32,000 nt of DNA from Candidatus Saccharimonadota bacterium (GTDB taxonomy: Bacteria > Bacteroidota > Bacteroidia > Flavobacteriales > Blattabacteriaceae). The stretch is taken from contig NZ_CP006873.1 of assembly GCF_000709555.1 (NCBI RefSeq), positions 90,001 through 122,000 of the forward strand, written 5' to 3'. Below are positions 6,098 to 23,868 of the stretch, piece by piece. A program made the position numbers and the translations under genes. Every line of letters begins with the position of its first letter. Positions within the stretch are counted from its first letter, which is position 1. The notes beneath the pieces are model-generated. The model was not told the DNA's origin and did not search any database. It saw only the letters and a program-made list of their open reading frames with translations.

Positions 6098-7153
6098 ATG
6101 GAACCCCATGAAAAAATTATAGAAGATTTCATAAATAAACGATATAAACCTATTTATTTTTTGATGGGTGAGGAATCATACTACATTGATTTAATTAGTC
6201 GGTTTATAGAAAAAAACATACTATCTAAAGAGGAAAAGTTTTTTAATAAAATTGTTCTGTACGGGACCGAAACAGATATAATTAGTGTTATCGAAAAGGC
6301 CATCAAATATCCAATAACAAGTAAATATATAGTAATTCTTTTAAAAGAGGCTCAAATGATGGAAAAAAGTATAGACAAATTAGGTGTTTATGTAGAGGCT
6401 CCTATAAGGAGTACGATATTGGTAATATGTTATAAAAACAAAGTACTAGATCATAATAAAAAATTATATAAACTGATACACAATCATGGTGGGTTAGTGT
6501 TCAATAGTAAAAAATATCGAGAATCCCAAATTCCCGATTGGATTTCTCGTCAAGTAAAGAGTCTGAATAGAAGCATTACTTCAAAAGCACAACAGCTTTT
6601 ATATGAATCTGCTGGAACTTCTTTATCTACTATTGTTCAAGCACTGGAAAAAGTTGATTTAGCTGTACCGGAAGGTGCTGAAATTACTATATGGGATATT
6701 GAGCAGTATACTGGTATAAAAAAGAATTTCAATATTTTTTCGTGGCAAAGGGCAATAGCTGAGAAAAATTTTCATAAAACGCAAGAAATCTCTTTTTTTT
6801 TGGGGAAAAACTCCAAAGAATTCCCTCTCATATTTTTAATTAACGTGCTTTATCGATTTTTTGTAAATCTTGTAAAGTACCATCTAAGTATTCCTGAGAC
6901 TAGAGAGAATCTCTCAAAGAGATTAAATGTTTTTCCATCTCTTATAAAAGATTATGAAAAAGCCGCACATCATTATTCTTTACAAGAAAATATAAAGATC
7001 TTTTCCTATCTCAGAGAAGCCGATAAACAATCCAAGGGGATTGATTATCCTCCTCTGTCAGAAAATAATATTTTGCCAGAACTTATTTGGAATATTTGTT
7101 TTATCCTAGAGTGTAATAAAATATATATGAATGTTAAAAGAATCTGTTCATAA
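6098..7153 (+). CDS. holA: DNA polymerase III subunit delta
   Basis: 351-aa ORF. The N-terminus ...KPIYFLMGEESYYIDLISRFIEKNIL...FNKIVLYG matches the HolA pattern (Y.L.GEE...ID...FN...YG). The last 23 nt overlap the start of the trxB fossil. Confidence 0.8.
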   Translation: MEPHEKIIEDFINKRYKPIYFLMGEESYYIDLISRFIEKNILSKEEKFFNKIVLYGTETDIISVIEKAIKYPITSKYIVILLKEAQMMEKSIDKLGVYVEAPIRSTILVICYKNKVLDHNKKLYKLIHNHGGLVFNSKKYRESQIPDWISRQVKSLNRSITSKAQQLLYESAGTSLSTIVQALEKVDLAVPEGAEITIWDIEQYTGIKKNFNIFSWQRAIAEKNFHKTQEISFFLGKNSKEFPLIFLINVLYRFFVNLVKYHLSIPETRENLSKRLNVFPSLIKDYEKAAHHYSLQENIKIFSYLREADKQSKGIDYPPLSENNILPELIWNICFILECNKIYMNVKRICS

Positions 7154-7957
7154 TTGTGTTATAATAGGTTCTGCAGGTTATTCCGCTGCTATCTATACAG
7201 CACGAGCTGGTCTTAACCCTTTAGTCAGGAAAAAATCCTGGAGGACAGCTAACCTGAATTAATGGAAAAGATGAAAAAACAAGCTGATGGGGCCATTGTA
7301 AAAAGGCAGACGATTGTAAAAGTTTCCCTAGCAAAGGAAAAAAATTGTATCAATCAACTATATACTGACAATAATGAAAAAGTACAGGCCAAAGCTATCA
7401 TTATAGCCACAGGAGCTTTATCTAAAGATCTAGGTTTAGAAAGTGAAGAACGATTAAAAGGATACGGAGTTTCTTCGTGTGCTATTTGTGACGGTTTCTT
7501 GTATAAAGATAAAGTAGTAGCTGTCGTTGGAGGAGCCCTTGAAGAAACAATTTATCTTTCTAAGATATGTAAAATAGTATATTTATTGGTGCGAAGTGGT
7601 GCCTCAAAGGCTATGCAATGTCGTTTATGGAAAATATCGAATCTCAAAATTTATTTTTCTCATGAAATTAAGGAAATTTTAGGTGAGAGGTTTGTTGAAG
7701 GTGTGCGAATCATTAACAATCAAAAGGAATCTATTCTTTCCATAGATGGTATTTTTATAGCTATTGGTCAGATTCCTAATACAGCTATCTTTAGGGGGAA
7801 TTTGGATAAAATGGGTTAGACTAAAAAAGGAAGTACACACACCAATCTCCCTAGTGTTTTTGCTGCTGGAGATGTCCAAGATGCGGTTTCCCGTCAACTT
7901 CATCTGGGACGGGGTGCAGCACTTGATTTAGAACGTTATCTTATGGAAAATCATTAA
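7131..7957 (+). pseudogene. trxB: Thioredoxin-disulfide reductase pseudogene (multiple frameshifts, stops and deletions)
   Basis: ATG 7131 gives MLKESVHNCVIIGSAGYSAAIYTARAGLNPLV, in which the FAD GxGxxG motif is shortened to GSAGY, and the frame is then lost. GGQL appears in another frame. The central 185-aa ORF 7262-7819 keeps GVSSCAICDG and IATGA, but the NADPH motif is cut to VVGGALEE. After the stop at 7819 the C-terminus continues as [20 protein letters not shown]...[10 protein letters not shown] and ends with TAA 7955-7957. Confidence 0.85.
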
Positions 7958-7963
7958 TTAGTC

Positions 7964-8878
7964 ATGAATCGTTCTGTATTTATATTTTCTACAGTGGCTT
8001 TTCTTTTCTTTTCTTTTACCGATAATAGAAAATAACAGTGTTATAGATGATTATACTACTACAGTAGTAGACTATTTTAAGTTAAAAATGCAGCATGAAG
8101 AAACTTTTGTTTTTACTAAAAGTGAAGCTGTGACATTATATAATACTGGTAAAAAAAACAGTCTTTTCGATCATCAAATCTAAAAAACTAGAAGAATTTT
8201 TTTATTTTATAGTGGTAGAAGGTTTCCTGGAAATGGAAAAAATATTGATCTGATAGAGTATAAAAATATAGAAGGAAATATTATTATGGTGGTGATTAAT
8301 CAAACCTATATTTCTGCAGAAAAACTTGGTACGCTTGAAGAAAAAAAAATTATTAGTGAGGATGAACAACGTATTTCTTTTATTGATCCTTCTTCTTCCA
8401 TTTATCACGAAGATTTTTCAAAAACTTTATTTAATCTTAGAAAAAATAAGGGTTTGCAATATGCTCACAAAAACTTATGTTGGATTTTTCTTATTTCGGA
8501 ACTATGATGGTTTACAAAGGATTAGCTGACGGAATGGTCTCTGGAGCAGACTCTTCTCAAACTGGAGTAAACACAGTTTCTTCTATTTTTTTCATGCTTT
8601 TACATGATCGTGTCCCTGTAAAAACCCGAGCTCAGGATCTATTGATTGAAGGCCGACGCCTATTGTTGGAAAACAAAAGACCCAATTCTTCTGGAGCCGG
8701 AAAGGCTAATGTGCTTATTTTTCCTGATCTTAATACAGGAAATAATACTTATAAAGCAGTGCAAAGAGAAACTAAATCTTTAGCTACAAGGGAGCCTATA
8801 AATGAGGCGAAGACATTTATAATACTATTATTGTTACCTCTATACAAGCAACATATTTATGAAAATTCTGATTATTAA
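7964..8878 (+). pseudogene. pta: Phosphate acetyltransferase pseudogene (about 0.9 kb left of a gene that is about 2.1 kb in Bacteroidetes)
   Basis: ATG 7964 gives MNRSVFIFST... followed by a stop. Later fragments are ..RRFPGNGKNIDL..ISFIDPSSSIYHEDFSKTLFNLRKNKG, then a shift to DFSYFGTMMVYKGLADGMVSGA and AGKANVLIFPDLNTGNNTYKAVQRE (ORF 8477-8878). Large internal blocks are missing. The track ORFs 8286-8507, 8326-8529 and 8477-8878 are fragments of it. Confidence 0.8.
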
Positions 8879-9688
8879 TTCCTCTATATCAACTAATGGA
8901 GATGCCTGAAAATAAAGTCTTATCCAAAGGGCTCATAGAACGAATAGGTATAGAAGGAGGACATCTTCATCATAAATACTTTAAAAATGGTTCTTGGCTA
9001 GAATTAAAGAAAAATTTTAAAATAGACGATCACATTTCAGGTTTTGAACAAATAAATATTTTACTCTCTGATAGCCAAATAGGAGTTATTAAAATTCCTG
9101 ATGAGATCTTCGCTATTGGTCATAGAGTGGTACATGGTGGTAATGACCAAAACTATAGAAATTTCTAAAAAAGTAATTCGTTCTGTTTTTCCTCCCTTAC
9201 CGCCAATCTTCTGGGTTTCCCTCGAAAGAGTTTGCCTAAAAAATCCACGGGCAAAAATTATTACTCTTCATTTAGGAAATGGAGCGGTTATTAAGGAAGG
9301 CATTTCTACAGAAACCAGTATGGGTACCAATAGTGGACTTATTATGGGTACTCGTAGTGGAGATTTAGATACAACAATAATTTTTTACCTTTTAAGTAAG
9401 TCGTATAGCCCTGAATATCTATCCGATATATTGAATAAAAAAAGTGGAATGTTAGCCCTATCTGTAAACAGCGATCTGCGAGATAAAAAGGAGGATCCTA
9501 AAGCTAAATTAGCAGGAGAAAATGAGGCCTTTGTCCGAAGTATTATTTGTGATGAAATGGATTTTTTAGGTCTCATCCTAGATGAAAAGAAAAATACTAT
9601 TAAAGCCTCTGGTATTAGAGAAATACAATCCAATAAAAGTAGGGTGACCGAAGAAGAAATTGGTTTTCTTCTTTATAATATGTGGTAA
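8859..9688 (+). pseudogene. ackA: Acetate kinase pseudogene
   Basis: ATG 8859 gives MKILIINSSISTNGDA* (cf. MKILVINSGSSSIKYQL). ORF 8896-9168 carries ...GLIERIGIEGG...AIGHRVVHGG. ORF 9101-9688 carries KIITLHLGNGA, SMGT..GLIMGTRSGDLD and LNKKSGMLALS..SDLRD. The AFHQT...RRYGFHGTSH block is deleted and the C-terminus is truncated. About 0.83 kb remains of about 1.2 kb. Confidence 0.85.
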
Positions 9689-9689
9689 C

Positions 9690-12600
9690 ATGTATTTGAT
9701 TTTTGATACTGAAACCAATGGTTTACCGGAAAATTATGATACCGAGAAGTCGCCGCGTATGGTTCAACTCGCTTGGCAATTGTATGATGAGACCTTTGAA
9801 AGGATTGAGGTAAAAAACTTTATTGTCAAATCTGAAGGATTTGATATTCCTTTTAATTCGGTTAAAATTCATGGTATTACTGCTGAAAGATCTCTAAGAG
9901 AAGGATATCCTTTACAGGATGTTCTTATTTGTTTTAAAAAAGCTCTGGAGAAAAGTCAATTTCTAATTGGTCATAATATTGCTTTTGATATCAACGTTGT
10001 CAGTTGCGAATTCTTTAGAAAGAATTATCCGAATTTGTTTTTGCAAAAAACTGTTTTAGATACTAAAGATGAATCTATAAATTATTGTGCTTTTAAGGGA
10101 AGAGGAAGAGGTAAAAAATTTAAATGGCCCACTCTGACTGAACTATATTATAAACTTTTTGGTACCAATTTTCCGCAAGCGCATAATGCTGCAGCTGATG
10201 TTGAGGCTACAGTGCATTGCTTTGTTGAATTATTACGTTTAGGTGTCATCTCAGTTGATAAATTAGGGATCGATCAATTTAGAGTAAAAAAATTCATACA
10301 AAAAGTTAAATCTCTGAAGATAAGTCCTATCGGTCAAAACGTCTGTACAGAATTCCGTCAACGGAAAGTTCATCCTGTAGAAAAACCTGCACAGATAAAT
10401 AATTTGCGAGCCAAATTTGCGCAGATCCACAATCATACGACTTTTTCGATTTTATCAGCTACTACAGACGTATCATCTCTGGTCAAACGTGCATTTCAAT
10501 GGGGAATGCCTGCGGTAGGAATTACTGATTACGGTAATCTTATGGGATCTTTTTCCTTTTTGAAAGAAATAGAGAAAGCCAATGCTCAAATTGATCAAAA
10601 ATCGAAGACCCTTAAGGGAATTATAGGTTGTGAAATTTTTATGTCAGAAAATGATATTAAAAAAAAAATTACTAAAGATCATCCTGATATACGTTACAAA
10701 CAAGTTTTTTTAGCAAAGAATAAAAATGGTTATCAGAACCTATCTAAACTTTGTTCTGAAGGTTACATAAATGGACAATATGCACCCCGAGTAGGTAAAG
10801 AACTGATTCTGCAATATAAGGAAGGTCTAATAACTTTTACAGGATATCTTGATTCTGAAATTCCATCCACAATCCTTAATCAGGGAGAAATCCAGGGAGA
10901 AGAAATTTTTAAATGGTGGCATAACACTTTTAAAGATGATTTTTATGTAGAACTTTTCCGTCACGGATTAGAGGAAGAAGATTATGTTAACGAAGTATTA
11001 CTTAGATTTTCAGAAAAATATAATGTAAAATATATACCCCAAAATAATAGCTTTTATTTAGATAGGGAAGATGCTAATGCTCATGATATTCTGCTTTGTG
11101 TCCGAGATAGAGAAAAAAAGTCTACCCCAATAGGCTCAGGGAGAGGATATCGTTTTGGATTTAGGAACCAGGAGTTCTATTTTAAAAGTGCTTCTCAGAT
11201 GATTGAGAATTTTTCAGATTTCCCTAAATCCTTTGATTATTTAGAGGAGTTAATAAATAAAATCAGTCATTATTCTCTAGAAAGAGAAGTTATATTACCT
11301 CATTTTGAAATTACTAAAGTTGCATATGAGGGGCAACGTGGAGAAAATGCCTATCTGAGTTATTTAGCTTATCAAGGGGCAGAAAAACGTTATGGAAAAC
11401 TCAGTAAAAGATTGCGAGAACGCTTGGAATTTGAATTGAATACCATAGAGAGAACAAGATACCCTGGTTATTTTCTTATTGTTCAAGATATTGTGGCACA
11501 GGCTAAAAAAATGGGAATATCTGTTGGTCCAGGGAGAGGATCGGGAGCTGGGTCTTTGGTAGCTTACTGTATAGGTCTTACACAGATAGATCCTATCCGA
11601 TACAATCTCCTTTTTGAGCGTTTTTTAAATCCTGATAGAATATCTATGCCAGATATAGATATAGATTTTGATGACCGTGGTCGTGACAGAATAATAGCAT
11701 GGATAGTAAAAAAATATGGGCGAAAACAAGTTGCTAAAATTATTACCTATAGTAGGATGGGAGCTAAATCTGCTATACGAGATTCCGCCCGTGTTCTTGA
11801 TCTTCCATTAGCAGAGGCAGATCGTTTAGCTAAAATGATGCCTAATCTTTCGTTGAAAGAACTTTTTTCGTCCACACAGATCCAAGAAAAAATTCATGTA
11901 TTTGACCTCGAAAACGCATTAAAAATTAAACAAATTTCCCAAGAACAGAATCTTGAAGGAAAAGTTTTACGACAAGCAAGTGTTATTGAAGGATCTCTGA
12001 GAAATATCGGAGTCCATGCTTGCGGAATTATCATCACCCCATCCGACATTACTAATTATATCCCAGTAGCTATTTCCAAGGATTCAGATTTGCTTATTAC
12101 ACAATTTGATAATAATTGGGTCGAAAATGCTGGACTCCTAAAAATAGATATTTTAGGTCTCAAAACACTAACTATTATTAAAGATAGCATCAAATTAATC
12201 GAAACCCGTCATGGATTAATCCTCAATCCTAATCAATTCCCTTTAGATGATCCCAAAACTTCTAAACTTTTCCAACGAGGAGATACCGTAGCAGTATTCC
12301 AGTACGAGTCATATGGGATGAAAAGTTATATACGTAAACTCAACCCTGACAATTTCGATGACCTCATTGCAATTAATGCACTTTATCGACCAGGTCCATT
12401 ACAATATATACCAAATTTTATTGCCCGGAAACATGGGAAGGAATCTATAACATATAGTTTCCCTGAAATGGAAGAATTCCTTAGCAGTACTTATGGGATT
12501 ACTATTTATCAAGAACAAGTAATGTTGTTGGCTCAAAAGCTTGCAGGATTTGGTAAGGGAGAGGCTGATGTCTTACGTAAGGCTATGGGAAAAAAGCAAA

Positions 12601-13943
12601 AACCCGTACTTGATCAAATGAAAAGTAAGTTTATAGAAGGAGCTGTCCAGAAAGGATATACAAAAAAAATCTTAGAAAAAATTTGGACTGATTGGGAATC
12701 CTTTGCTTCCTATGCTTTTAATAAATCACATTCTACTTGTTATGCGAATCTTGCTTTTCAAACCGCTTATCTAAAAGCTCATTACCCGTCTGAATATATG
12801 GCAGCAGTATTGAGTAATAATATGCACAACCTCAAGGAAATTATTTTCCTGATGGAAGAATGTCGTCGTCTAGGAGTATTAGTACTTTGTCCCGATATTA
12901 ATGAAAGCTATTATACTTTTTCGGTCAATGAAAAAGGAGCTATACGTTTTGGCATGGGAGCTATAAAAGGTATAAGGGAAGCTTCGATAGAAGCTATTCT
13001 ACAGGAACGTGAAAAAAAAGGGATTTATCGTTCCATTTTTGATTTAGTAAAGAGAGTTGATTTCCGGATAGTGAATAAAAAGACTTTAGAGTCTTTAGTA
13101 CTTTCAGGAGCTTTTGATAGCTTTAGCAATGTTCATCGTGCACAATATTTTGACAAAAAAAAAAATTGTTTCACTGCTCTTGAAAAAATTATCCGTTTTG
13201 GAGAAAAATATCAGAATAGCAAACAAAAAAACCAGTGTTCTCTTTTTCAAGAGGAACCCGTATTACCATATTGTACTCCCTGGCCAAATCTTATTAAACT
13301 CCTGAAGGAAAAAGAAGTCATTGGGATCTACATTAGTTCTCATCCATTATATGATTATCGTCAGGAAATTCTAGCTATAGAAGGTATTCCTCTTCAAGAA
13401 TTCAATAGAAATGAATATAAATGGAGAGGTAAAGAAGTAAATCTCTATGGAATCATTCTTCGGTTCGAAAAAAAAATATCTGTAAAAAACAATAGTCGAT
13501 ATGGAGTATTTACTCTAGAAGATTATCAAGGAACGCGGGAGTTCAGAATATTTGGCGCATATTATACAAAGTATGCTTATTTACTTGTGCCAAATACTTT
13601 GATCCATCTTAAGATAATACTTAGTAACTTTAAAATACTTAGTAACTTTCAAAAGTTCCGTGTCAGCTTCTTGAACATTCAACTGCTTGACAATGTATTG
13701 AATTCGACAGATAAAGATCTTTATTTGAAGATCGATTTAGAAAGGTTAGATAATGAAATGATTAATAATATTGAACAGACGATTTCAAAGTATAAGGGTT
13801 CTAGAAAATTAAAGGTCATCCTGTTATATCATCAAGGTAAAAGATATATGGGTATGTTATCTAGGAGTTATGGAGTTAGTATAGAACGTGGATTAGTATC
13901 AGATTTAGAACAAATTCCCAACATTTCCTTAAATCTTTCTTAA
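9690..13943 (+). CDS. dnaE: DNA polymerase III alpha subunit with fused N-terminal DnaQ-like DEDDh 3'-5' exonuclease domain
   Basis: The likely start is ATG 9690 (MYLIFDTETNGLP); the track start 9660 lies inside the ackA fossil. The Exo motifs are DTETNG, GHNIAFDINVV and HNAAADVEAT. These are followed by the PHP motif (IHNHTTFSILSATTD), the polymerase core (GPGRGSGAGSLVAYC, PDIDIDF, GVHACGIIIT, ALYRPGP) and a C-terminal OB region. Confidence 0.95.
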   Translation: MYLIFDTETNGLPENYDTEKSPRMVQLAWQLYDETFERIEVKNFIVKSEGFDIPFNSVKIHGITAERSLREGYPLQDVLICFKKALEKSQFLIGHNIAFDINVVSCEFFRKNYPNLFLQKTVLDTKDESINYCAFKGRGRGKKFKWPTLTELYYKLFGTNFPQAHNAAADVEATVHCFVELLRLGVISVDKLGIDQFRVKKFIQKVKSLKISPIGQNVCTEFRQRKVHPVEKPAQINNLRAKFAQIHNHTTFSILSATTDVSSLVKRAFQWGMPAVGITDYGNLMGSFSFLKEIEKANAQIDQKSKTLKGIIGCEIFMSENDIKKKITKDHPDIRYKQVFLAKNKNGYQNLSKLCSEGYINGQYAPRVGKELILQYKEGLITFTGYLDSEIPSTILNQGEIQGEEIFKWWHNTFKDDFYVELFRHGLEEEDYVNEVLLRFSEKYNVKYIPQNNSFYLDREDANAHDILLCVRDREKKSTPIGSGRGYRFGFRNQEFYFKSASQMIENFSDFPKSFDYLEELINKISHYSLEREVILPHFEITKVAYEGQRGENAYLSYLAYQGAEKRYGKLSKRLRERLEFELNTIERTRYPGYFLIVQDIVAQAKKMGISVGPGRGSGAGSLVAYCIGLTQIDPIRYNLLFERFLNPDRISMPDIDIDFDDRGRDRIIAWIVKKYGRKQVAKIITYSRMGAKSAIRDSARVLDLPLAEADRLAKMMPNLSLKELFSSTQIQEKIHVFDLENALKIKQISQEQNLEGKVLRQASVIEGSLRNIGVHACGIIITPSDITNYIPVAISKDSDLLITQFDNNWVENAGLLKIDILGLKTLTIIKDSIKLIETRHGLILNPNQFPLDDPKTSKLFQRGDTVAVFQYESYGMKSYIRKLNPDNFDDLIAINALYRPGPLQYIPNFIARKHGKESITYSFPEMEEFLSSTYGITIYQEQVMLLAQKLAGFGKGEADVLRKAMGKKQKPVLDQMKSKFIEGAVQKGYTKKILEKIWTDWESFASYAFNKSHSTCYANLAFQTAYLKAHYPSEYMAAVLSNNMHNLKEIIFLMEECRRLGVLVLCPDINESYYTFSVNEKGAIRFGMGAIKGIREASIEAILQEREKKGIYRSIFDLVKRVDFRIVNKKTLESLVLSGAFDSFSNVHRAQYFDKKKNCFTALEKIIRFGEKYQNSKQKNQCSLFQEEPVLPYCTPWPNLIKLLKEKEVIGIYISSHPLYDYRQEILAIEGIPLQEFNRNEYKWRGKEVNLYGIILRFEKKISVKNNSRYGVFTLEDYQGTREFRIFGAYYTKYAYLLVPNTLIHLKIILSNFKILSNFQKFRVSFLNIQLLDNVLNSTDKDLYLKIDLERLDNEMINNIEQTISKYKGSRKLKVILLYHQGKRYMGMLSRSYGVSIERGLVSDLEQIPNISLNLS
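13617..13652 (+). repeat. In-frame 18-bp tandem duplication inside the dnaE C-terminal region
   Basis: atacttagtaactttaaa (13617-13634) is immediately followed by atacttagtaactttcaa (13635-13652), with 17/18 identity. It encodes ILSNFK|ILSNFQ. Confidence 0.9.
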
Positions 13944-13958: not shown

Positions 13959-15734
13959 ATGAAAATAAAAGTCAGAACTACTAATGCTGATGACACGAAA
14001 TATGTTGTAGTTATTTGTCAACAAATCGAGGAATCTGCCAAGATACGTAGAACCGGCATTGCTAAAAGGGATCCAGAATATGTAAAAAAAAAAATTACTG
14101 AAGGTCATGCTGTAATAGCTTTTTGTGACGGAATACTTGCTGGATTTAGTTATATAGAAACTTTTCAGGACAGACAATTCGTTGCTAATTCTGGTCTTAT
14201 TGTATTTCCAGAATTTCGGAATAAAGGAGTGGCCAAGCTAATTAAATCAGAAATCTTTCAACTATCTAGAAACAAATTTACGAAGTCAAAGATATTCAGT
14301 ATTACGACTAACATTTCAGTGTTAAAAATGAATATGGACTTGGGTTTCAAACCTGTACCTATAACAGTACTTCCCAAATCGGAAGACTTTTGGAAAGGAT
14401 GTAGAAGTTGTACAAACTATGATATTCTCACTAGACATAACCGAAAAATGTGTTTATGTAGCGGGATTTTATATGATCCTAGTGAAAAAAAATCTAATAA
14501 AAAATTACTTTTTGGGTATAAAAAATTATTTTTTGGTGATAAAAAATTACTTTTTGGGGATAAAATTTTACTTGCTTACAGTGGTGGTCTAGATACCTCT
14601 TATTGTTTAAAATTCCTAACCCAACAGGGTTTTCATGTGTATACAGCTATCGTAAATACTGGAGGTAGTAGTGAAAAAGAATTAATTGATATCGAAAAAA
14701 AGGCTTATGCTATAGGAGCCAAATTTCATCGAAATATAGAAGCAAAAGATGATTTTTATCAGCATTGTATAAAATATCTGATATTCGGAAATATTCTACG
14801 TAATCATACTTATCCCTTATCAGTAAGTGCCGAAAGAATTTTTCAAGCTATTAAAATAGCAGAATATGCTAATGAAATCAATGCTAAAGCCATAGCTCAC
14901 GGTAGTACCGGTGCTGGTAATGACCAGATCCGTTTTGATTTAGCCTTTCAAATATTGTGTCCTAATAAAATTATTATAAGCCCAATCCGGGATCTGAAAC
15001 TTTCACGAAAGGAGGAAATGGATTATTTACGTGAGCATGGAGTGGACATATTATGGGAAAAAGCGCAATATTCCCTGAATAAGGGTCTTTGGGGAACTAG
15101 TGTTGGAGGTAAAGAAACGCTGACTTCGAACCAAAATTTCCCAGAAGGAACCTATCCCAACTCTTTACAAGAGTTTAAGCCTCAAAAAATCCAACTAACT
15201 TTCTCAAAAGGGGAATTGATCGCTATCAATGGAGAAGTTACCGATCCAGTGGAAAATATAGTTCGTTTAGAGAGGATTGCTTCTCGTTTTGCTATAGGTC
15301 GTGATATTCATGTAGGTGATACACTTATTGGAATTAAAGGACGTGTAGGATTCGAAGCATCTTCAGCTCTGATAATTCTCAAGGCTCATCACCTTCTTGA
15401 AAAACATGTTCTTAGTAAATGGCAGATTTATTGGAAAGAACAATTGGGGAATTGGTATGGGATGCTTTTGCACGAAGCGCAATACTTCGATCCGGTTATG
15501 CGTGATATTGAAGCTTTTTTTATGAATTCTCAAGAAAGAGTTAGCGGAATTGTAAGCGTACAGTTGCATCCTTATCGTTTTGAACTTATAGGCATTGAGT
15601 CACCTTTTGATCTTATGCAGACTCAAAAAACAAAATATGGGGAAGAAAATGAGTCCTGTAGTTCTGAAGAAGCTAAAGGATTTATTAAAATATTTGGAAC
15701 CCCGATGAAAATTTATCACAGTATTAATCCCTAA
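13959..15734 (+). CDS. argG: Single ORF fusing a GNAT-family acyltransferase domain (arginine-cluster ArgA-like) to argininosuccinate synthase
   Basis: 591-aa ORF. Residues 1 to about 180 form a GNAT fold (GLIVFPEFRNKGVAKLI) with a Cys-rich tail (GCRSCTNY...KMCLCSG). From LLAYSGGLDTS onward it is canonical ArgG (AHGSTGAGNDQIRF, ...GRVGFEAS). No stop and no ATG/GTG/TTG lie between the two domains. Confidence 0.85.
   Translation: MKIKVRTTNADDTKYVVVICQQIEESAKIRRTGIAKRDPEYVKKKITEGHAVIAFCDGILAGFSYIETFQDRQFVANSGLIVFPEFRNKGVAKLIKSEIFQLSRNKFTKSKIFSITTNISVLKMNMDLGFKPVPITVLPKSEDFWKGCRSCTNYDILTRHNRKMCLCSGILYDPSEKKSNKKLLFGYKKLFFGDKKLLFGDKILLAYSGGLDTSYCLKFLTQQGFHVYTAIVNTGGSSEKELIDIEKKAYAIGAKFHRNIEAKDDFYQHCIKYLIFGNILRNHTYPLSVSAERIFQAIKIAEYANEINAKAIAHGSTGAGNDQIRFDLAFQILCPNKIIISPIRDLKLSRKEEMDYLREHGVDILWEKAQYSLNKGLWGTSVGGKETLTSNQNFPEGTYPNSLQEFKPQKIQLTFSKGELIAINGEVTDPVENIVRLERIASRFAIGRDIHVGDTLIGIKGRVGFEASSALIILKAHHLLEKHVLSKWQIYWKEQLGNWYGMLLHEAQYFDPVMRDIEAFFMNSQERVSGIVSVQLHPYRFELIGIESPFDLMQTQKTKYGEENESCSSEEAKGFIKIFGTPMKIYHSINP
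14499..14582 (+). repeat. 21-bp tandem repeat array (3 clear copies plus 1 degenerate copy) forming the GNAT-ArgG linker
   Basis: The copies are aaaaaattactttttgggtat (14499-14519), aaaaaattattttttggtgat (14520-14540) and aaaaaattactttttggggat (14541-14561). A fourth, aaaattttacttgcttacagt (14562-14582), is the start of the ArgG core. The translation is KKLLFGY|KKLFFGD|KKLLFGD|KILLAYS, in frame with ORF 13959. Confidence 0.9.
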
Positions 15735-16702
15735 TGATTCAAATAGGAATATTAGGGAGTTCAGGATATACCGCTGGGGAACTATTACGTCTTTTGTTAC
15801 ATCATCCTAAAGTACAGATAAAAAGTGTGGTAAGCAGTACTCAATCTGGGATTGAGGTTTCCAAAATTCATCAGGATTTACTAGGTGATACTGAATTATG
15901 CTTTACTGATCATTTGGAGGATGTCGAGGTAGTATTTTTATGTCTTGGTCATGGGCATTCTAGAAATGCTGTTAAAAAAATTTCAACAAATAGTTGCATT
16001 ATTGATTTAAGTCATGATTTTAGGCTTTCAAAAAATGCCCATTTTTCAGGCAGAAACTTTGTATATGGTTTACCAGAATTGCAACGTCAAGCCATTAAAA
16101 AAGCAAAAAACATTGCTAATCCAGGTTGTTTTGCTACAGCTATAGAACTTCCTTTGTTACCACTAGCTAAAGAAAGATGGCTTGATAACGATATTCATAT
16201 AAGTGCTATTACAGGTTCTAGCGGATCAGGACGTCTATTGAGAGAAAGTAATCATTTCAGTTGGAGAGTAAATAATGTTACTACTTATAAAGTGTTTACC
16301 CATCAGCATTTAAAAGAAATTAGAGAGGTATTGTTCCGATTGTGTCCTAGCTTTAATAAAAAACTCTTTTTTGTACCCTACAGAGGTAATTTTTCCCGGG
16401 GAATATTTGCTACGTTATACACATATTGCAAGGCTCCTCTTCAGGAAGTTGAGTTCCTTTATCAAGAATTTTATAAAAATCATCCTTTTACACATCTTTC
16501 TAAAGATCCATTATGTCTCAAACAAGTGGTGAATACCAATAAATGTTTATTGCACTTAATGAAAGAGAAAGAACAGTTGATTATCAGTAGTGTTATAGAT
16601 AATCTGGTTAAAGGAGCCGCAGGCCAAGCAGTTCAGAATATGAATCTGATGTCCAACTTGGAAGAAGTTATGGGTTTACAGATAAAATCTATCGCATTTT
16701 GA
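15734..16702 (+). CDS. argC: N-acetyl-gamma-glutamyl-phosphate reductase
   Basis: 322-aa ORF with IGILGSSGYTAGELLRLLLHHP and the active-site context NPGCFATA. Its start overlaps the argG stop by 1 nt (TAATG). Confidence 0.95.
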   Translation: MIQIGILGSSGYTAGELLRLLLHHPKVQIKSVVSSTQSGIEVSKIHQDLLGDTELCFTDHLEDVEVVFLCLGHGHSRNAVKKISTNSCIIDLSHDFRLSKNAHFSGRNFVYGLPELQRQAIKKAKNIANPGCFATAIELPLLPLAKERWLDNDIHISAITGSSGSGRLLRESNHFSWRVNNVTTYKVFTHQHLKEIREVLFRLCPSFNKKLFFVPYRGNFSRGIFATLYTYCKAPLQEVEFLYQEFYKNHPFTHLSKDPLCLKQVVNTNKCLLHLMKEKEQLIISSVIDNLVKGAAGQAVQNMNLMSNLEEVMGLQIKSIAF

Positions 16703-17381
16703 AAATTCATTTGATGTGTATTCTACAATTCCTACTAGAATTAGTAAAAGGTTCCTTTTCGATAAGGAAGGAAACAAATATCTAGATTTTTATGGAGGAA
16801 TCTCTATTGGACATCCGTGAAATCTTTAATCGATTCCCCAACGCAATTTAAAAATTGCATCTTTTCATAACAGAAAAAACAAGATAATTTCATTCAAAAA
16901 AGCTTTTCATGGTCTGACTATAGGAGCGTTATCCATTACAGATAATCCGAAAATAGTTACTTCTTTTAATGACAAATTTGATAGAATAATTCTGGATCAG
17001 GAAGGGAGTGTACTGAAGGTAATCAGAGAGTAGCTGGCATTATAGATCCTGGGGTAGATTTTTTTCGAGGAATATTGTCGTAAGTACAATGTTCCTCTTA
17101 TTCGAGATGAAATTCAAAGTGGTATGGATTTCCTTTAGGAGGTGTGCTCCTTATTTCAAAGCTTTTCATGGGTTTTAAAAGTTATTAAAAATGAATGTAT
17201 GATTGAAAATGTCCTCAAATAAAGAGGATTAGTGGCTTGATGTTGTTATTTTCCTGTCTACAACTTAAGAGAGAGAAAAAGTGGGTACAACCTAATATTT
17301 TACGTGTTTTGCCTCCTCTCAGTATATCTAATTCTCAGGCTATGTGTTTTGTACGAAAGTTGAAGAGTGCTTTAGCTTATC
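16699..17381 (+). pseudogene. argD: Acetyl/succinyl-ornithine aminotransferase pseudogene
   Basis: No ORF of 60 aa or more. Fragments in shifting frames are FDVYSTIPTRISKRFLFDKEGNKYLDFYGGISIGHP*, ..KKAFHGLTIGALSITDNPK...FNDKF, LIRDEIQSG (cf. LIxDEVQxG) and NILRVLPPLSISNSQAM..LKSAL (cf. LRxxPPLxI). About 0.68 kb remains of about 1.15 kb. The PLP-lysine region is not recognisable. Confidence 0.8.
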
Positions 17382-17396: not shown

Positions 17397-18482
17397 ATGA
17401 ATGATCCTATCGCTCGTTTAATCCTTCAAAAGGATGATAAAGAATATATTGGACATCTTTTTGGAGCACCTGTTTCTTCTTCTGGAGAAGTTGTTTTTAA
17501 TACTTCCATGACAGGTTATACAGAAAGCCTTACTGATCCATCTTATAAAGGACAGTTATTGGTCTATACCTATCCTATTATTGGTAACTACGGAATCCCC
17601 AATATAGGTAAAAATATATCAGATTTTTCTGAATCAGAAAACATACATATTAACGGTTTAATCATTTCTGATTATTCACATCATCCTTACCATTGGAACA
17701 TGAGATATAGTCTTTCGTATTGGTTGAAAAAGAATGGGGTTCCTGGAATCTATGGAATAGATACTCGTGCATTGACCAAAAAAATTCGTGAAGAAGGGAC
17801 GATGTTAGGAAAAATTATCATCAATCATGATATCCCATTTTATGATCCTAATCAGGAAAATCTAGCATCTAAGGTGTGTATTAATGAAAAAACTATATAC
17901 GGACATGGAAAATACAAGGTGTTGCTGGTTGATTTAGGAGTAAAGAACAATATCTTGCGCTGTTTGCTTAACCGAAATTGCCAGATAATACGTGTGCCAT
18001 GGTCTTCTGATTTTTCCAAAGAAGACGACTATGATGGTATTTTGCTTTCTAATGGACCAGGTAATCCTAAGACTTATCATAAGGTTATAAAACACGTGGA
18101 GTATGCCCTTAAAGATAATCGTCCTATCTTTGGAATTTGTCTTGGAAATCAATTAATTGGTCTCGCTGCAGGAGTGAATACCTTTAAACTAAAATATGGG
18201 CATCGCGGCTATAACCAACCAGTTTTGCTCGAAGGGACCTCTAAGGCATACATAACTTCACAAAATCATGGATACGTCCTTGACGTACAAATTTTGCCTC
18301 CAAACTGGAAAATTTTATTTCAAAATATCAACGACGGATCTTGTGAGGGATTAATACATGAAAATAAACCTTTCTTTTCAGTTCAATTTCATCCAGAAGC
18401 CTCTGGTGGACCTATAGATACCGAATTTTTATTTGATTGGTTTATAGAATGCATGCATTCATCCAATAAATTATATAGATGA
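17397..18482 (+). CDS. carA: Carbamoyl-phosphate synthase small (glutamine amidotransferase) subunit
   Basis: The likely start is ATG 17397 ([14 protein letters not shown]); the track start is TTG 17382. Motifs are [23 protein letters not shown] (catalytic Cys) and FHPEASGGP. There is an ATGA overlap with carB. Confidence 0.95.
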
Positions 18483-21400
18483 AAAAAATTCTGGTTATTG
18501 GTTCTGGGGCTTTGAAAATTGGAGAGGCAGGAGAATTTGATTATTCAGGAACACAAGCCTTAAAAGCAATTAAAGAAGAGGGAATAGAGACTATTTTAGT
18601 GAATCCTAATATCGCTACAGTGCAAACCTCTGAAGGTATAGCCGATAAAATTTATTTTCTTCCTATTTACCCAAAATTTATTAAAAAAGTCATCGAAAAA
18701 GAAAAACCTAGTGGACTTTTGTTATCCTTCGGAGGACAAACAGCATTAAATTGTGGCGTGAAACTGTTTGAAAAAGGTGTATTGAAAAAACATGTTCTAA
18801 AAGTTTTAGGTACTCCTATAGAGTCTATTATTGCTAGTGAAGATAGAGATATTTTTCGAGATAAACTCAATACTATGAATATCAAAACGGCTCGTGGTAT
18901 AGTGGTACATTCTCTGGAAGAAGCCTTTTCGGCCTCTGAAGAAATAGGCTTCCCTATAATTATAAGAACTTCTTATGCCTTAGGAGGACTGAGTAGTGGA
19001 TTTGCTCACGATAAAAAGGAATTGGCAACATTGATAGACATAGCTTTATCACATTCTTCACAAATCCTTATAGAAGAATCCCTGAAAGGTTGGAAGGAAA
19101 TAGAATATGAAGTCATGTGCGACCGATACGGAAATTGTATTACGGTATGCAATCTGGAAAATTTCGACCCCATTGGTATACATACAGGAGACAGCATAGT
19201 AGTAGCTCCTTCACAAACTCTTCCTAATTCTGAATATCAGAAACTTCGCACATTTTCTCTGTCTATTGCCCGTGCTTTTGGAATAATAGGAGAATGTAAT
19301 GTGCAGTTCGCTTTATCCCCAAATTCTGAGGATTATCGTCTTATTGAAATAAATGCAAGACTTTCTCGTTCAAGTGCTTTAGCTTCTAAAGCTACGGGAT
19401 ATCCAATAGCCTTTATAGCAGCAAAACTAGCCTTAGGCTATGGTTTACATGAATTAAAGAATTATGTTACCCAAACTACTTCTGCTTTTTTTGAACCGTC
19501 TCTTGATTATGTAGTGTGCAAATTTCCTCGTTGGGATTTAAAAAAATTCTCCCGATCATCTACCCAAATTGACAGTAGTATGAAAAGTGTGGGTGAAGTT
19601 ATGTCTATAGGAGGATCCTTTGAAGAAGCGTTCCAGAAAGGATTACGGATGCTTGATATAGGATTAGAAGGATTCATCAATCCTAAAAAAAAAAGATGAC
19701 ACTCTTGAAAAACGTCTTATAATTCCTACCGATCAGCGAGTAAAAGCGCTGGAAGCTGCTTTTGATGAAGGCTACACAGCAGAAAAACTTTATGATCTTA
19801 CACGTATTGATCTTTGGTTTCTTTACAAGCTTCGCAATATTCATCACACAAAAAAAATACTATCACGGTACAAAAAGTATGAAGATTTACCTAAAAATAT
19901 TTTTTATTTAGCCAAAAAGCAAGGATATTCAGATCGACAAATAGGAGCTATTCTTAGCCCTGACGAACATATGTCTATATCTTCTTCTATGGTTCGTAAT
20001 ATACGAAAAACTCTCAAAATTTTTCCTCACGTACGTCGTATAGACACTTTATCAGCTGAATATCCAGCATATACCAACTACTTGTATATGAGTTATCATG
20101 CTTATCGTCATGATATTGATTACGAAGGGGATGGACGGTCAGTAGTAGTTTTAGGATCTGGTGTGTATCGTATAGGTAGTAGTGTAGAATTTGATTGGTG
20201 TTGTGTGAACACATTAAAGGTTCTTCATTCTGAAGGTTATCGATCGATAATGATCAACTGTAATCCTGAAACTGTCAGTACAGATTTTGACGAATGTGAA
20301 AGATTATATTTTGAAGAACTCACTCTAGAACGTGTGCTAGATATTCTAGAACTAGAAACCCCGAAAGGGACGATTGTATCTATGGGAGGACAAATTTCCA
20401 ACAATCTTGCATTCCCACTCCATCAAAATAAGCAAAGAATTTTAGGAAGCTTAGCCACTTCTGTAGATGAAGTAGAAGACCGTTATAAGTTTTCCAAAGC
20501 TTTGGATATCCTAGGCATAGAACAACCTATGTGGAAAGAATTTTCTAAGATGAACGATATTCAGACCTTTATTAGAGAGGTCGGATATCCGATATTAATC
20601 CGACCATCGTATGTCCTATCAGGTTCAGGAATGAACGTAATTTTTAATGTAGAAGAACTTAGATACTTTTTTGATAAATTGGAGACGTCTGAACATTCAG
20701 TAGTGATAAGTAAATTTATAGAAAATGCTAAAGAAATAGAACTAGATGCTGTGGCTCATAAAGGTGATCTTATTTATCATGCCGTCTCCGAGCATATAGA
20801 ATTTGCTGGATTACATTCAGGAGATGCTACTTTAGTATATCCTCCGCAAAATATTTACTTATCTACGTTCCAAGAAATCGAACGTATTTCTAAACAAATT
20901 GCACAATATTTTCATATTTCAGGACCTTTTAATATACAGTTTATTTCTAAAAATAACCGAATTCAAGTAATAGAGTGCAATTTACGAGCTTCCAGAAGTT
21001 TTCCTTTTATTTCTAAAGTCTCTGGATTTAATATGATCCGATTAGCTACTGAAGTAATGTTAGGAAAACTCACGAATCCTTGTGGAATTTTTTTTTCTTT
21101 TAATTATATAGGTGTAAAAGTTTCGTACTTCTCCTTTTCACGTCTTCCAGGGACAGATCCTGTCCTAGGTGTAGATATGGTTTCTACAGGTGAAGTAGGT
21201 TGTTTGGGAAACAATTTTTATGAGTGCCTCATAAAAGCTATGTTGTCTGCTGGCTTTAGCGTCCCTGTCAAGCATCTTTTAATTTCAGGAGAAATTTCTT
21301 CTTTAAAAGAAGATTTTATTAATACTATTAAACTATTGGTGTATAAGGGATATAAACTGTTTTCGACAGAGGAGATATATCCATTTCTTATGGATTATGG

Positions 21401-21665
21401 TTTAACTTCAAAGCTATTGTCCTGGCCAGGTGTGCATCATTTCCCCAATGTCTTTGACTATCTTCGAAAGAAAAAAATTTATTTCATTATCAATATTCCT
21501 CATAACAAATATTCCGAAATAGATAATAACTATACTCTAAGACGCTCAGCAGTAGATTTCAATATTCCGCTTTTAACTAATACTAGTTTAGCTAAAGCCT
21601 TTATAAGAGCTTTCTGTAAAGAAGAACTAACTATAGCAGAATGGAAAAGTTATCTAACAGTATGA
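18479..21665 (+). CDS. carB: Carbamoyl-phosphate synthase large subunit, one gene split into two ORFs by a +1 frameshift inside an A10 tract
   Basis: ORF 18479-19699 holds ATP-grasp 1 ([22 protein letters not shown]...). Read one nucleotide forward from the A-run, the frame continues without stops. It reads [46 protein letters not shown]...[12 protein letters not shown]...[21 protein letters not shown], which is the oligomerisation domain. That frame joins ORF 19971-21665 (ATP-grasp 2 plus the MGS-like tail). After the correction the gene is about 1061 codons, the normal CarB size. Confidence 0.9.
19685..19694 (+). repeat. A10 homopolymer at the carB frameshift site
   Basis: The sequence is cct-aaaaaaaaaa-gatgac. 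With 10 A the frame hits TGA at 19697-19699. With 9 A the frame reads [10 protein letters not shown]... and stays open to 21665. Confidence 0.95.
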
Positions 21666-22625
21666 ACCGATTTTTTAGTGTTCAAGATATTCCTAATGTC
21701 CCTGTTTTGGTAAAGGAGGCATTATCTCTTAAAAAAGCTCCTTATATAGAACTTGTCAAAAAAAAATAAGATTATAGGATTAGTATTTTTTAATCCAAGC
21801 TTGAGAACACGGTTGAGCAGTCAAAAAGCTGCTTTTCACCTAGGTTGCGATACTTGGACACTAAATATAGATCATGATTCTTGGAAAATAGAGATGAATG
21901 ATGGTGACGTTATGGACCGTCACTCCCAAGAACATATAAAAGAAGCCGTTGGAGTGATGAGTTTATATTGCGATATATTAGGTGTTCGAACCTTTCCTGG
22001 ACTAAAAAATAGAGATTCTGATTATAAAGAAATTCTTTTTAAGAATATAGAAAATTATTCTCACGTTCCGATAGTTAATTTAGAAAGTGCTACACGTCAT
22101 CCCTTGCAATCTTTAGCTGATGCTATGACCATTGAAGAGTGTCGTGTTCCTGGAAACCCGATAAAAGTAGTACTTAGTTGGGCCCCTCATCCTAAAGCTT
22201 TACCACATTCTGTGCCTAATTCTTTTATAGAATGGATTTCCAAATTACCTAATACTGATCTAATAATTACTCATCCTATTGGATATGAGCTTGATAAAGA
22301 AATTACTAAAAATACAAATATTCTTTATAATCAAGAAGAAGCCTTAAAGTATGCAGATTTTATTTATGCCAAAAATTGGAGCAGTTATACCTATTACGGG
22401 AAGATTCTATGTGATGACACTAGATGGATGATTACTTGTGAGAAGATGGACCTTACTAATAAGGCAAAATTTATGCATTGCCTCCCCATCAGACGTAATG
22501 TAGTAGCTGAAGACGCTGTTCTAGATTCCTATATTTCTTTGATTTTTCAAGAGGCTGAAAATAGGATCTTCGCTTCTAAGGCTATTTTCAAAAGGATATT
22601 GAACGCATCATCATGTTGCATATAG
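21662..22625 (+). CDS. argF': N-acyl (acetyl/succinyl)-L-ornithine carbamoyltransferase, interrupted by a +1 frameshift inside an A9 tract
   Basis: ATG 21662 (ATGA overlap with the carB stop) gives [35 protein letters not shown], the family N-terminus. ORF 21753-22625 continues as KIIGLVFFNPSLRTRLS..., HPLQSLAD and HCLP in the frame one nucleotide forward. Removing one A joins them with no other lesion. Confidence 0.85.
21758..21766 (+). repeat. A9 homopolymer at the argF' frameshift site
   Basis: The sequence is gtc-aaaaaaaaa-taag. With 9 A the first frame ends at TAA 21767-21769. With 8 A it reads ELVKKNKIIGLVFFNPSLRTR. Confidence 0.95.
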
Positions 22626-23386: not shown

Positions 23387-23402
23387 ATTTATTGAAACCT
23401 AA

Positions 23403-23718
23403 ATGTATGATACAAGAAATAAAAGATAACAGGCATCCCTTCTGATTGCTTCTAAAAAACTATCTCTAGTATATTTCTGGGCTCCTTGGTGTAACTCATG
23501 TAAATCTTTAGCTCCTTTCATAGAAGAGATCTCAGAAAAGTATGATGGAAAAGTTTTAATAATAAAAATAAATGTAAATGATAATACAAAAACTGTTTAT
23601 GAACATGGAATAAAAAGTATTCCTACATTAATATGTTTTAAAAATGGAAAAGAAATATGCAGGAGTGAATTCTCAAAATCCTTTAACTAAGGAATTAGAT
23701 AAATTAATTTGTAAGTAG
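23403..23718 (+). pseudogene. trx: Thioredoxin pseudogene (in-frame TAA at codon 9 plus a C-terminal frameshift)
   Basis: The translation is MYDTRNKR*QASLLIASKKLSLVYFWAPWCNSCKSLAPFIEEISEKYDGKVLIIKINVNDNTKTVYEHGIKSIPTLICFKNGKEICRSEF. The expected C-terminus, NSQNPLTKELDKLICK*, is found only in the frame one nucleotide forward. No ATG/GTG/TTG lies between the TAA and the WCxxC motif. The motif is WCNSC rather than the canonical WCGPC. Confidence 0.8.
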
Positions 23719-23792
23719 GGTCTGGTAGTTCAGCTGGTTAGAATACGTGCCTGTCACGCATGTGGTCACGGGTTCAAGTCCCGTCCAGATCG
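23719..23792 (+). tRNA. tRNA-Asp (anticodon GUC)
   Basis: The sequence folds by hand as GGTCTGG-TA-GTTC-AGCTGGTTA-GAAT-A-CGTGC-CTGTCAC-GCATG-TGGTC-ACGGG-TTCAAGT-CCCGT-CCAGATC-G. It forms a cloverleaf with a 7-bp acceptor stem (one G-U pair), a GTC anticodon and a TTCAAGT T-loop. It closely resembles E. coli tRNA-Asp. CCA is not encoded. Confidence 0.95.
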
Positions 23793-23868
23793 CTAATCGT
23801 CATTGTGAAATAAAGACGACTGTTTTTATTTTTTATTAGACTGCAAGCTATTATAGAGAGTTCTCTGC

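What the first reader, a model, noticed from the sequence alone, without database searches (positions are those of the whole stretch)
13959..15734. GNAT acyltransferase and argininosuccinate synthase are fused into one ORF through a 21-bp tandem repeat array
In Bacteroidetes arginine clusters, as I recall them, a small ArgA-like GNAT gene sits immediately upstream of a separate argG. Here a 180-residue GNAT domain runs without a stop into ArgG. The junction (14499-14582) is three near-identical 21-bp units, KKLLFGY/KKLFFGD/KKLLFGD, followed by KILLAYSGGLDTS. This looks like repeated slippage-duplication of the first codons of argG. No start codon exists between the domains, so ArgG can only be made as a fusion, joining the first and a late enzyme of the pathway in one polypeptide. 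Repeat-mediated gene fusion in a genome that is otherwise only shrinking is unusual.
Basis: partly seen in the sequence, partly recalled or inferred. Interest (0 to 1): 0.65.

Follow-up and report, generated by a model that had tools for sequence, protein, structure and literature searches.

The report
Linker repeat in old GNAT–ArgG fusion
A scale-insect symbiont carries a strain-specific triplication of seven codons in the flexible linker of a two-enzyme arginine-synthesis protein, but the two enzymes were joined long before the repeat arose, so the repeat is a small slippage event and did not cause the fusion.

Summary
ORF 13959-15734 (+) encodes 591 aa: a GNAT domain, then three 21-bp units (14499-14561; KKLLFGY/KKLFFGD/KKLLFGD), then argininosuccinate synthase. 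No ATG/GTG/TTG lies between the domains. The array is the strongest tandem repeat in the window.

The window is Candidatus Walczuchella monophlebidarum. Eight other Walczuchella proteins (95-97% identical) are fused with only one unit. The proteins found from Blattabacterium, Karelsulcia and other insect Flavobacteriales symbionts are also fused, and most share an L-x-x-G-D-K junction. Free-living Bacteroidota are mostly split: 73 of 80 loci have argG just downstream of a separate GNAT gene.

So the fusion is ancestral. The repeat is a later 42-bp in-frame expansion of the last seven linker codons, most likely by replication slippage in a genome reported to lack mutL. It lies in a low-confidence, length-variable linker, and the expanded length stays within the family range. 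One Blattabacterium strain has an independent, perfect 33-bp duplication at the same junction.

The GNAT belongs to the ArgA2/BT3761-type N-acylglutamate synthases. Nearby argD is a shredded pseudogene. Interest is low to moderate.

The parts
13959..15734 (+). Fused ArgA2-type GNAT / argininosuccinate synthase ORF, 591 aa plus stop. The TAA stop overlaps the ATG of argC by one base.
   Evidence: identical to protein P0121 from the 309,299-bp Walczuchella contig
13959..14498 (+). GNAT acyltransferase domain (residues 1-180). It carries the R87-x-x-G90-x-A92 acyl-CoA motif and invariant Cys148/151/165/167.
14499..14519 (+). Repeat unit 1, AAAAAATTACTTTTTGGGTAT (KKLLFGY)
14520..14540 (+). Repeat unit 2, AAAAAATTATTTTTTGGTGAT (KKLFFGD)
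14541..14561 (+). Repeat unit 3, AAAAAATTACTTTTTGGGGAT (KKLLFGD). This corresponds to the single ancestral linker unit of the relatives.
14562..14573 (+). AAAATTTTACTT at the ArgG start. It is an imperfect direct repeat (10 of 12) of the unit's first 12 nt, exactly 21 bp downstream, and is the likely seed for the first slippage.
   Evidence: inference
14562..15731 (+). Argininosuccinate synthase domain (residues 202-591) with intact AYSGGLDTS and HGSTGAGNDQIRFD motifs
15734..16702 (+). argC, the next gene of the arginine cluster (context)
16703..17381 (+). argD pseudogene remnant: 15 internal deletions relative to the intact 385-aa gene of a sister strain (context for pathway status)

Best explanation
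The gene is the ancestral bifunctional ArgA2-ArgG gene of the insect-associated Flavobacteriales symbionts. An N-acyl(succinyl or acetyl)-glutamate synthase GNAT domain is joined by a short flexible linker to argininosuccinate synthase. In the Llaveia axin strain of Walczuchella, the last seven linker codons (KKLLFGD) were duplicated twice in tandem. This adds 42 bp, or 14 residues.

The most likely mechanism is slipped-strand mispairing during replication. It was probably seeded by the imperfect direct repeat AAAAAATTACTT / AAAATTTTACTT, whose copies lie exactly 21 bp apart in the single-unit allele. The units have since picked up three substitutions.

The change is in frame and lies in a linker that already varies from 18 to 48 residues in the family. 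It is therefore most likely neutral or nearly neutral, fixed by drift, and does not create, split or switch the enzyme.

Shown: the fusion predates the repeat; the insertion is specific to this strain; it lies in the linker. Inferred: the slippage mechanism, its neutrality, and the enzymatic role of the GNAT domain.
For: The window ORF is identical to the protein from the 309,299-bp Walczuchella contig. All eight other cluster members are fused with one unit.

The DNA alignment shows a clean 42-bp insertion relative to two sister contigs and the Geopemphigus symbiont.

All 119 near-full-length hits are fused. The Blattabacterium, Karelsulcia and Walczuchella-group junctions share L-x-x-G-D-K-I/V. 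These symbiont ArgG parts form one clade in a neighbour-joining tree.

Linker length ranges from 18 to 48 residues (median 26) in 75 fused proteins, and the window's is 39.

In the AlphaFold2 model, pLDDT is below 50 for residues 177-189, and averages 40 for 181-190 and 71 for 191-200.

A Blattabacterium cuenoti genome (CP142631) has an independent, perfect 33-bp x 2.1 duplication that ends at the same GAT|AAA ATT junction.

dN/dS against the sister strain is 0.26, similar to argC (0.23) and argB (0.27).

Walczuchella is reported to lack mutL, dnaB and recombination genes (PMC3971599, PMC12188211).

In about 17 kb compared with the sister strain, the 42-bp array is by far the largest insertion, against about 70 deletions.
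Against: The array is known from only one assembly, a 2014 Velvet/Phrap hybrid of 100-nt and roughly 190-nt reads, and I could not inspect reads.

The units differ at 5-14% of sites, against 2.1% gene-wide divergence from the sister strain. So the array is not very young, or the linker evolves fast. The numbers are too small to tell.

Neutrality is inferred, not measured.

The pairwise dN/dS averages over both lineages and cannot show whether constraint was relaxed on the window's own branch.
Confidence: 0.8

Rival explanations
1. The expansion is a slightly deleterious lesion tolerated because the arginine pathway of this strain is already collapsing. On this reading, the fused gene is at an early stage of pseudogenisation.
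For: argD, two genes downstream, is shredded by 15 deletions. carB is in two pieces, with about 270 bp of non-coding sequence between them. The thioredoxin gene after argB carries 4-bp and 8-bp deletions. The literature reports arginine genes among those being lost in Walczuchella (PMC12188211).
Against: The ORF is intact and all invariant family residues are kept. dN/dS of 0.26 matches the neighbouring intact genes. The expanded linker is within the natural length range.
Confidence: 0.12
2. Linker lengthening is adaptive. It would tune the spacing or oligomer geometry of the two catalytic domains, which would explain why tandem duplications recur at this junction.
For: There are two independent in-frame duplications at the same codon boundary in different genera. 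Blattabacterium linkers are generally long, up to 48 residues.
Against: Only 2 of 124 fused proteins carry a duplication, and eight sister Walczuchella do well with one unit. The A/T-rich, lysine-codon-rich sequence at the junction explains recurrence by mutation bias alone. The region has low model confidence.
Confidence: 0.05
3. The three-unit array is an assembly artefact of the 2014 genome.
For: It rests on a single assembly with no independent contig carrying this protein. A later paper raised assembly quality of this genome as a question (PMC12188211 abstract).
Against: Each unit carries its own substitutions, so the array is not a stutter of identical k-mers. At 63 bp it is shorter than the 100-nt and ~190-nt reads. 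It is in frame.
Confidence: 0.03
4. One reading: repeated duplication of the argG start created the fusion of two formerly separate genes in this lineage.
For: Free-living Bacteroidota do have separate genes. The array abuts the ArgG N-terminus.
Against: The fusion exists without repeats in the relatives recovered, from 97% down to about 50% identity. The true units mismatch the argG start at 9-10 of 21 positions.
Confidence: 0.005

Closest known systems
Fused GNAT-ArgG proteins of Blattabacterium, Karelsulcia and other Flavobacteriales insect symbionts. Databases name them 'argininosuccinate synthase domain-containing protein', and in one case 'bifunctional argininosuccinate synthase, acetyltransferase activity of N-acetylglutamate synthase'.
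   Same: Same two domains in the same order, 59-75% identity over the full length. The named symbiont groups share the L-x-x-G-D-K-I/V-L-A-Y-SGG junction. The neighbourhood is the same dnaE - fusion - argC - argD (- carA) wherever it was examined, namely Walczuchella, the Geopemphigus symbiont and one Blattabacterium.
   Different: They carry one copy of the junction segment. The window carries three.
ArgA2 / BT3761 / Cabys_1732: stand-alone GNAT-type N-acylglutamate synthase of Bacteroidota and Caldithrix (PMC7311316, PMC9026213, PMC5317091)
   Same: The window's GNAT domain is 49-59% identical to the stand-alone GNAT gene that lies upstream of argG (directly upstream in most cases) in 73 free-living species. 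It shares the CxxC...CxC motif.
   Different: Those proteins are separate polypeptides with a 30-45-residue C-terminal tail and their own stop codon, and their argG has its own ATG. I did not compare directly with the BT3761 sequence.
argH(A) fusion of marine Gammaproteobacteria (Moritella, Alteromonas/Vibrio group; PMC1382215)
   Same: A short glutamate N-acyltransferase domain is fused to a late arginine-pathway enzyme. This joins the first committed step and a terminal step in one polypeptide.
   Different: The partner enzyme is ArgH rather than ArgG. The order is reversed, with the acetyltransferase C-terminal. The acetyltransferase is the C-terminal domain of classical NAGS, and the phylum is different.
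In-frame tandem duplications by replication slippage in reduced symbiont genomes
   Same: A short A/T-rich unit, a multiple of 3 bp, sits in a tolerant protein segment of a genome reported to lack mutL. Parallel cases are the 33-bp duplication in Blattabacterium CP142631 and the 18-bp duplication in Walczuchella dnaE.
   Different: There are three copies rather than two, and the copies have already diverged.

Membership tests
Argininosuccinate synthase (ArgG, TIGR00032 / PF00764 + PF20979) | Whole-protein score at or above the curated equivalog cutoff, with both Pfam domains present | tested here: met
   TIGR00032 scores 272.8 bits against a cutoff of 268.2. PF00764 E=4e-39 (residues 202-362) and PF20979 E=1e-32 (371-586).
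Argininosuccinate synthase (ArgG) | PP-loop ATP-binding motif A-Y-S-G-G-L-D-T-S and the H-G-S-T-G-A-G-N-D-Q-x-R-F motif | tested here: met
   Both motifs are present, and most of their residues are invariant or >=90% conserved across 85 fused proteins.
GNAT acyltransferase superfamily (PF00583) | Profile match to GNAT models and to solved GNAT structures, plus the R/Q-x-x-G-x-G/A acyl-CoA motif | tested here: met
   The domain alone scores 20.9 bits against a cutoff of 20.7, which is marginal. All 14 family members match PF00583 (best E=2e-7). The family profile hits the PDB GNAT PA4794 at 1e-7. R87-N-K-G90-V-A92 is present.
ArgA2 / BT3761 / Cabys_1732 N-acylglutamate synthase | Orthology to the GNAT gene encoded upstream of argG in Bacteroidota arginine clusters | tested here: met
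   49-59% identity over about 175 residues to 80 species loci. In 73 of them argG lies downstream on the same strand, within a few to about 240 nt in all but two. The literature places BT3761 next to BT3760 and Cabys_1732 in argAGCBEH.
ArgA2 / BT3761 / Cabys_1732 N-acylglutamate synthase | Direct sequence comparison with the genetically characterised BT3761 or with Cabys_1732 | not tested
ArgA2 / BT3761 / Cabys_1732 N-acylglutamate synthase | Glutamate N-acylation activity and choice of acyl donor (succinyl-CoA or acetyl-CoA) | tested here: inconclusive
   Activity cannot be tested here. As a proxy, the cluster's carbamoyltransferase is closest to B. fragilis succinylornithine transcarbamylase (294 bits against 175 for the acetylornithine enzyme). 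However, it has Gln at specificity position 90, which is neither the P/S/A/V residues nor Glu.
   Eight Walczuchella and the other symbiont orthologues recovered are fused without the repeat.
Phase-variable (contingency) repeat locus | Copy-number change shifts the reading frame or switches expression, and the units are identical and unstable | tested here: not met
   The unit is 21 bp, so every copy number stays in frame. The units have diverged by 1-3 nt, and no start codon or alternative long ORF is created.

The most novel reading that the evidence does not exclude
The GNAT-ArgG fusion with its shared L-x-x-G-D-K junction is a single rare genomic change that unites the insect Flavobacteriales symbionts (Blattabacterium, Karelsulcia, Walczuchella, Skilesia-like and relatives). 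Its linker is a recurrent site of in-frame tandem duplication whose length is under selection, so the three-unit allele of the Llaveia strain is a functional tuning of a bifunctional first-step/late-step arginine enzyme and not neutral slippage.
Probability: 0.1. Interest if true: 0.45.

Novelty: new member of a known kind. Interest (0 to 1): 0.22.

Why it matters
It matters little for the claim as first written. The fusion is old and widespread, and one database source already names it bifunctional. The repeat is a strain-specific slippage product in a tolerant linker.

Three smaller points have some value. First, the ArgA2-ArgG fusion and its conserved junction could serve as a rare-genomic-change marker for the origin of the insect Flavobacteriales symbionts. 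I found no discussion of it in the searchable literature. Second, the same junction duplicated independently in Walczuchella and in a Blattabacterium, which gives a natural one-unit versus multi-unit series for testing linker tolerance in a bifunctional enzyme. Third, this small gain of DNA sits next to a freshly shredded argD, which illustrates both directions of slippage-type mutation in a repair-poor genome.

Tried and rejected
1. I first took the 584-aa Walczuchella cluster member to be a two-unit intermediate. The alignment showed it has one unit and a 7-residue C-terminal extension instead, so the only copy-number states seen are 1 and 3.

2. The first attempt to scan genomes with a 14-sequence GNAT alignment failed because no stretch was conserved enough. 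A 6-sequence alignment worked.

3. The search of the 50%-identity representative library with the GNAT domain returned mostly 130-280-aa proteins. Many look like stand-alone forms, including full-length ~180-aa examples, but the library gives no taxonomy or context. It only showed that both architectures exist.

4. Folding the repeat region as single-stranded DNA showed no structure (z = 0.26), so a hairpin-driven mechanism is not indicated.

5. Microhomology at the argD deletion edges was mostly 0-2 bp, with a few cases of 4-5 bp. It neither proves nor excludes slippage for those deletions.

6. The supplementary tables of the 2025 Walczuchella paper were not available.

7. Literature searches for a described argA-argG fusion found nothing specific.

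8. The ungapped carA dN/dS is invalid because of a 3-bp indel and was discarded.

9. I did not use the metagenome scan to look for independent copies of the array, because JGI metagenomes are unlikely to include this insect.

Full report
WHAT IS THERE

The + strand carries one ORF from ATG 13959 to the stop at 15732-15734, encoding 591 aa. Residues 202-586 match both argininosuccinate synthase Pfam domains. The protein passes the NCBIfam argG equivalog cutoff (272.8 bits against 268.2).

Residues 1-180 form a GNAT domain. The Pfam match is marginal for this sequence alone (20.9 bits against a 20.7 cutoff). However, all 14 aligned family members match PF00583, and the family profile hits solved GNAT structures at 1e-7.

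Three 21-bp units lie between the domains:
- 14499-14519, AAAAAATTACTTTTTGGGTAT (KKLLFGY)
- 14520-14540, AAAAAATTATTTTTTGGTGAT (KKLFFGD)
- 14541-14561, AAAAAATTACTTTTTGGGGAT (KKLLFGD)

KILLAYSGGLDTS follows directly. Tandem Repeats Finder scores the array at 119. This is the highest score in the window, and the maximum in 100 Markov-1 simulations was 68. The unit occurs nowhere else in the window. No ATG, GTG or TTG lies in frame between M164 and the ArgG core.

WHERE THE WINDOW COMES FROM

The ORF is identical to a protein on a 309,299-bp contig. Its 90%-identity cluster consists of Candidatus Walczuchella proteins. [quoted passage not shown]

THE FUSION PREDATES THE REPEAT

All eight other Walczuchella proteins in the cluster are 95-97% identical and are fused. 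Each carries exactly one KKLLFG[DE] unit (one reads NKLLFGD). The single 584-aa member is longer at its C-terminus, not in the linker.

At the DNA level the window has a clean 42-bp insertion relative to two sister-strain contigs and to the Geopemphigus aphid symbiont.

A search of 5.8 billion proteins returned fused proteins of 532-608 aa as the best 119 hits, covering 92-100% of the query. Named sources include dozens of Blattabacterium genomes, Karelsulcia, other Flavobacteriales symbionts or MAGs, and some Calditrichia and Ignavibacteria. One source already names a Blattabacterium protein 'bifunctional argininosuccinate synthase, acetyltransferase activity of N-acetylglutamate synthase'.

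Most insect-symbiont proteins share the junction L-x-x-G-D-K-I/V-L-A-Y-S-G-G. Fused proteins from other lineages have different junctions, and some still keep the old ArgG Met. In a neighbour-joining tree of the ArgG part, the symbiont proteins form one clade. The other fused forms are scattered among split forms, which points to several independent fusions in the wider group. That tree has no support values and long-branch effects are possible.

THE SPLIT STATE IS REAL IN FREE-LIVING RELATIVES

I examined 80 species loci from free-living Bacteroidota and allies, including Flavobacterium, Hymenobacter, Chitinophaga, Bacteroidales and Balneolaceae.
- In 73, a separate GNAT ORF ends with a stop and argG lies downstream on the same strand, within a few to about 240 nt in all but two.
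- One locus (a Muribaculaceae MAG) is fused.
- Six have no argG within the fetched flank.

The stand-alone Flavobacteriia GNATs end in a tail such as ...KQALFLKK*, followed by M-[EK]-K-V-V-[VL]-A-Y-SGG. So the symbiont linker end KLLFGD may be a remnant of that tail. That is inference only.

WHAT THE REPEAT IS

The duplicated unit is the last seven codons of the pre-existing linker, not the start of argG. The ArgG start (AAAATTTTACTTGCTTACAGT) mismatches the units at 9-10 of 21 positions.

In the single-unit allele, the 12-mer AAAAAATTACTT and its near copy AAAATTTTACTT lie exactly 21 bp apart. This is the classic substrate for slipped-strand mispairing that yields a 21-bp tandem duplication, and a second slip would give three copies.

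Walczuchella is reported to lack mutL, dnaB and recombination genes (PMC3971599 and PMC12188211), which fits a raised slippage rate.

The units now differ by 1-3 nt. Gene-wide divergence from the sister strain is 2.1%. So the array is not brand new, or the linker evolves quickly.

LIKELY CONSEQUENCE

Among 75 fused proteins, the distance from the CxC motif to the ArgG core ranges from 18 to 48 residues, with a median of 26. The window's 39 is long but within range.

The AlphaFold2 model was built with 85 sequences (mean pLDDT 83.7, pTM 0.63). Confidence is below 50 for residues 177-189, and the 10-residue block means are 40 for 181-190 and 71 for 191-200. The array therefore lies in a poorly ordered connector, and both catalytic domains are modelled well.

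Pairwise dN/dS against the sister strain is 0.26 for the fused gene, against 0.23 for argC and 0.27 for argB. All family-invariant residues are kept. The simplest reading is a neutral or nearly neutral in-frame expansion.

A PARALLEL CASE

I scanned 124 fused proteins for linker repeats and found one other. Blattabacterium cuenoti CP142631 has KKDKNYLSIGD twice. This is a perfect 33-bp x 2.1 tandem duplication ending at the same GAT|AAA ATT boundary. The junction is therefore a recurrent site for this kind of event. Its A-rich lysine codons can explain that without invoking selection.

FUNCTION OF THE DOMAINS

The GNAT belongs to the family called ArgA2, exemplified by BT3761 and Cabys_1732. 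It is genetically required for arginine synthesis in Bacteroides thetaiotaomicron and is proposed to be N-succinylglutamate synthase (PMC7311316, PMC9026213, PMC5317091). Membership here rests on 49-59% identity plus conserved position upstream of argG. I did not compare directly with BT3761.

The acyl donor is unclear. The cluster's carbamoyltransferase (21753-22625) is closest to B. fragilis succinylornithine transcarbamylase, but it has Gln at specificity position 90.

The closest functional analogue in another phylum is the argH(A) fusion of marine Gammaproteobacteria (PMC1382215).

PATHWAY CONTEXT

The cluster reads dnaE, GNAT-argG, argC, argD remnant, carA, carB in two pieces, argF', argB.

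argD (16703-17381) aligns to the intact 385-aa gene of the sister strain with 15 deletions totalling about 450 bp, and 95% identity in what remains.

Over about 17 kb compared with the sister contig, the window shows about 70 deletions. Apart from the 42-bp array, its insertions are only 1-3 bp.

A broken pathway could mean relaxed selection on the fused gene. The present data neither show nor exclude that.

CAVEATS

The three-unit array is known from one 2014 short-read assembly. I could not check reads. The unit-specific substitutions, and an array length shorter than the reads, argue against an artefact.

VERDICT

What remains is an ordinary strain-specific slippage expansion in the linker of an ancient, already annotated bifunctional arginine enzyme. 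It comes with a modestly interesting parallel in Blattabacterium and a possible clade-marker value for the fusion itself.

Noticed in passing
window 16703-17381: argD (acyl-ornithine aminotransferase) is a shredded pseudogene. It has 15 separate deletions of 4-90 bp (about 450 bp in all) and one 1-bp insertion relative to the intact 385-aa gene of a sister Walczuchella contig (L001 5699-6856). The remaining sequence is 95% identical.
   Followed up: yes
L085 2038-2107 (Blattabacterium cuenoti CP142631.1): An independent, perfect 33-bp x 2.1 in-frame tandem duplication (KKDKNYLSIGD twice) lies at exactly the same GNAT-ArgG junction, ending at GAT|AAA ATT. It is the only other linker duplication among 124 fused proteins scanned.
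   Followed up: yes
window 13616-13653: An 18-bp x 2.1 in-frame tandem duplication lies in the C-terminal part of dnaE (ILSNFK/ILSNFQ). It is shared with the sister strain L001 and absent in the Geopemphigus symbiont, so it is older than the argG-linker array.
   Followed up: partly
window 14400-14461 (residues C148, C151, C165, C167): A CxxC...CxC motif at the C-terminal end of the GNAT domain is invariant in all 85 fused and all stand-alone family members examined. It looks like a four-cysteine metal site, which I do not recall as a usual feature of GNAT enzymes. The model confidence there is only 58-68.
   Followed up: partly
window 21753-22625: The carbamoyltransferase is closest to B. fragilis N-succinylornithine transcarbamylase (1js1). 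It has Gln at the position (P90 in 1js1) that switches succinyl versus acetyl specificity. The ORF starts about 34 residues later than the B. fragilis protein, but the sister strain has the same 290-aa length.
   Followed up: partly
window 18479-19699 and 19971-21665: carB is in two ORFs (406 and 564 aa, matching CarB model positions 7-410 and 503-1051) with about 270 bp of non-coding sequence between them. The sister strain also has a split carB, but with 414 + 646 aa and only an 18-bp gap, so the window copy has lost more.
   Followed up: partly
window 23387-23720 and 23794-24825: The thioredoxin gene that follows argB in the sister strain (L086 19872-20195) carries 4-bp and 8-bp deletions here and has no long ORF. 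tRNA-Asp is at 23719-23793. The roughly 1 kb that follows, up to thrA, has no ORF of 90 aa or more and no Rfam hit.
   Followed up: partly
window about 7150-9700: Relative to the sister contig, which has intact trxB-like, pta and ackA genes, this stretch carries dozens of deletions, the largest 672 bp, and only short ORFs. It is a block of decaying genes just upstream of dnaE.
   Followed up: no
window 9660-13943 (dnaE): Relative to the sister strain, dnaE differs by several in-frame gaps (6-15 bp) and a 3-bp insertion. This matches the published remark that Walczuchella polymerase genes accumulate deletions.
   Followed up: no
window 14910-14912 (residue G318): In the ArgG motif HGST-G-AGNDQ the window keeps Gly, as do nearly all the more distant family members aligned. 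All eight other Walczuchella proteins have Cys at this position.
   Followed up: no
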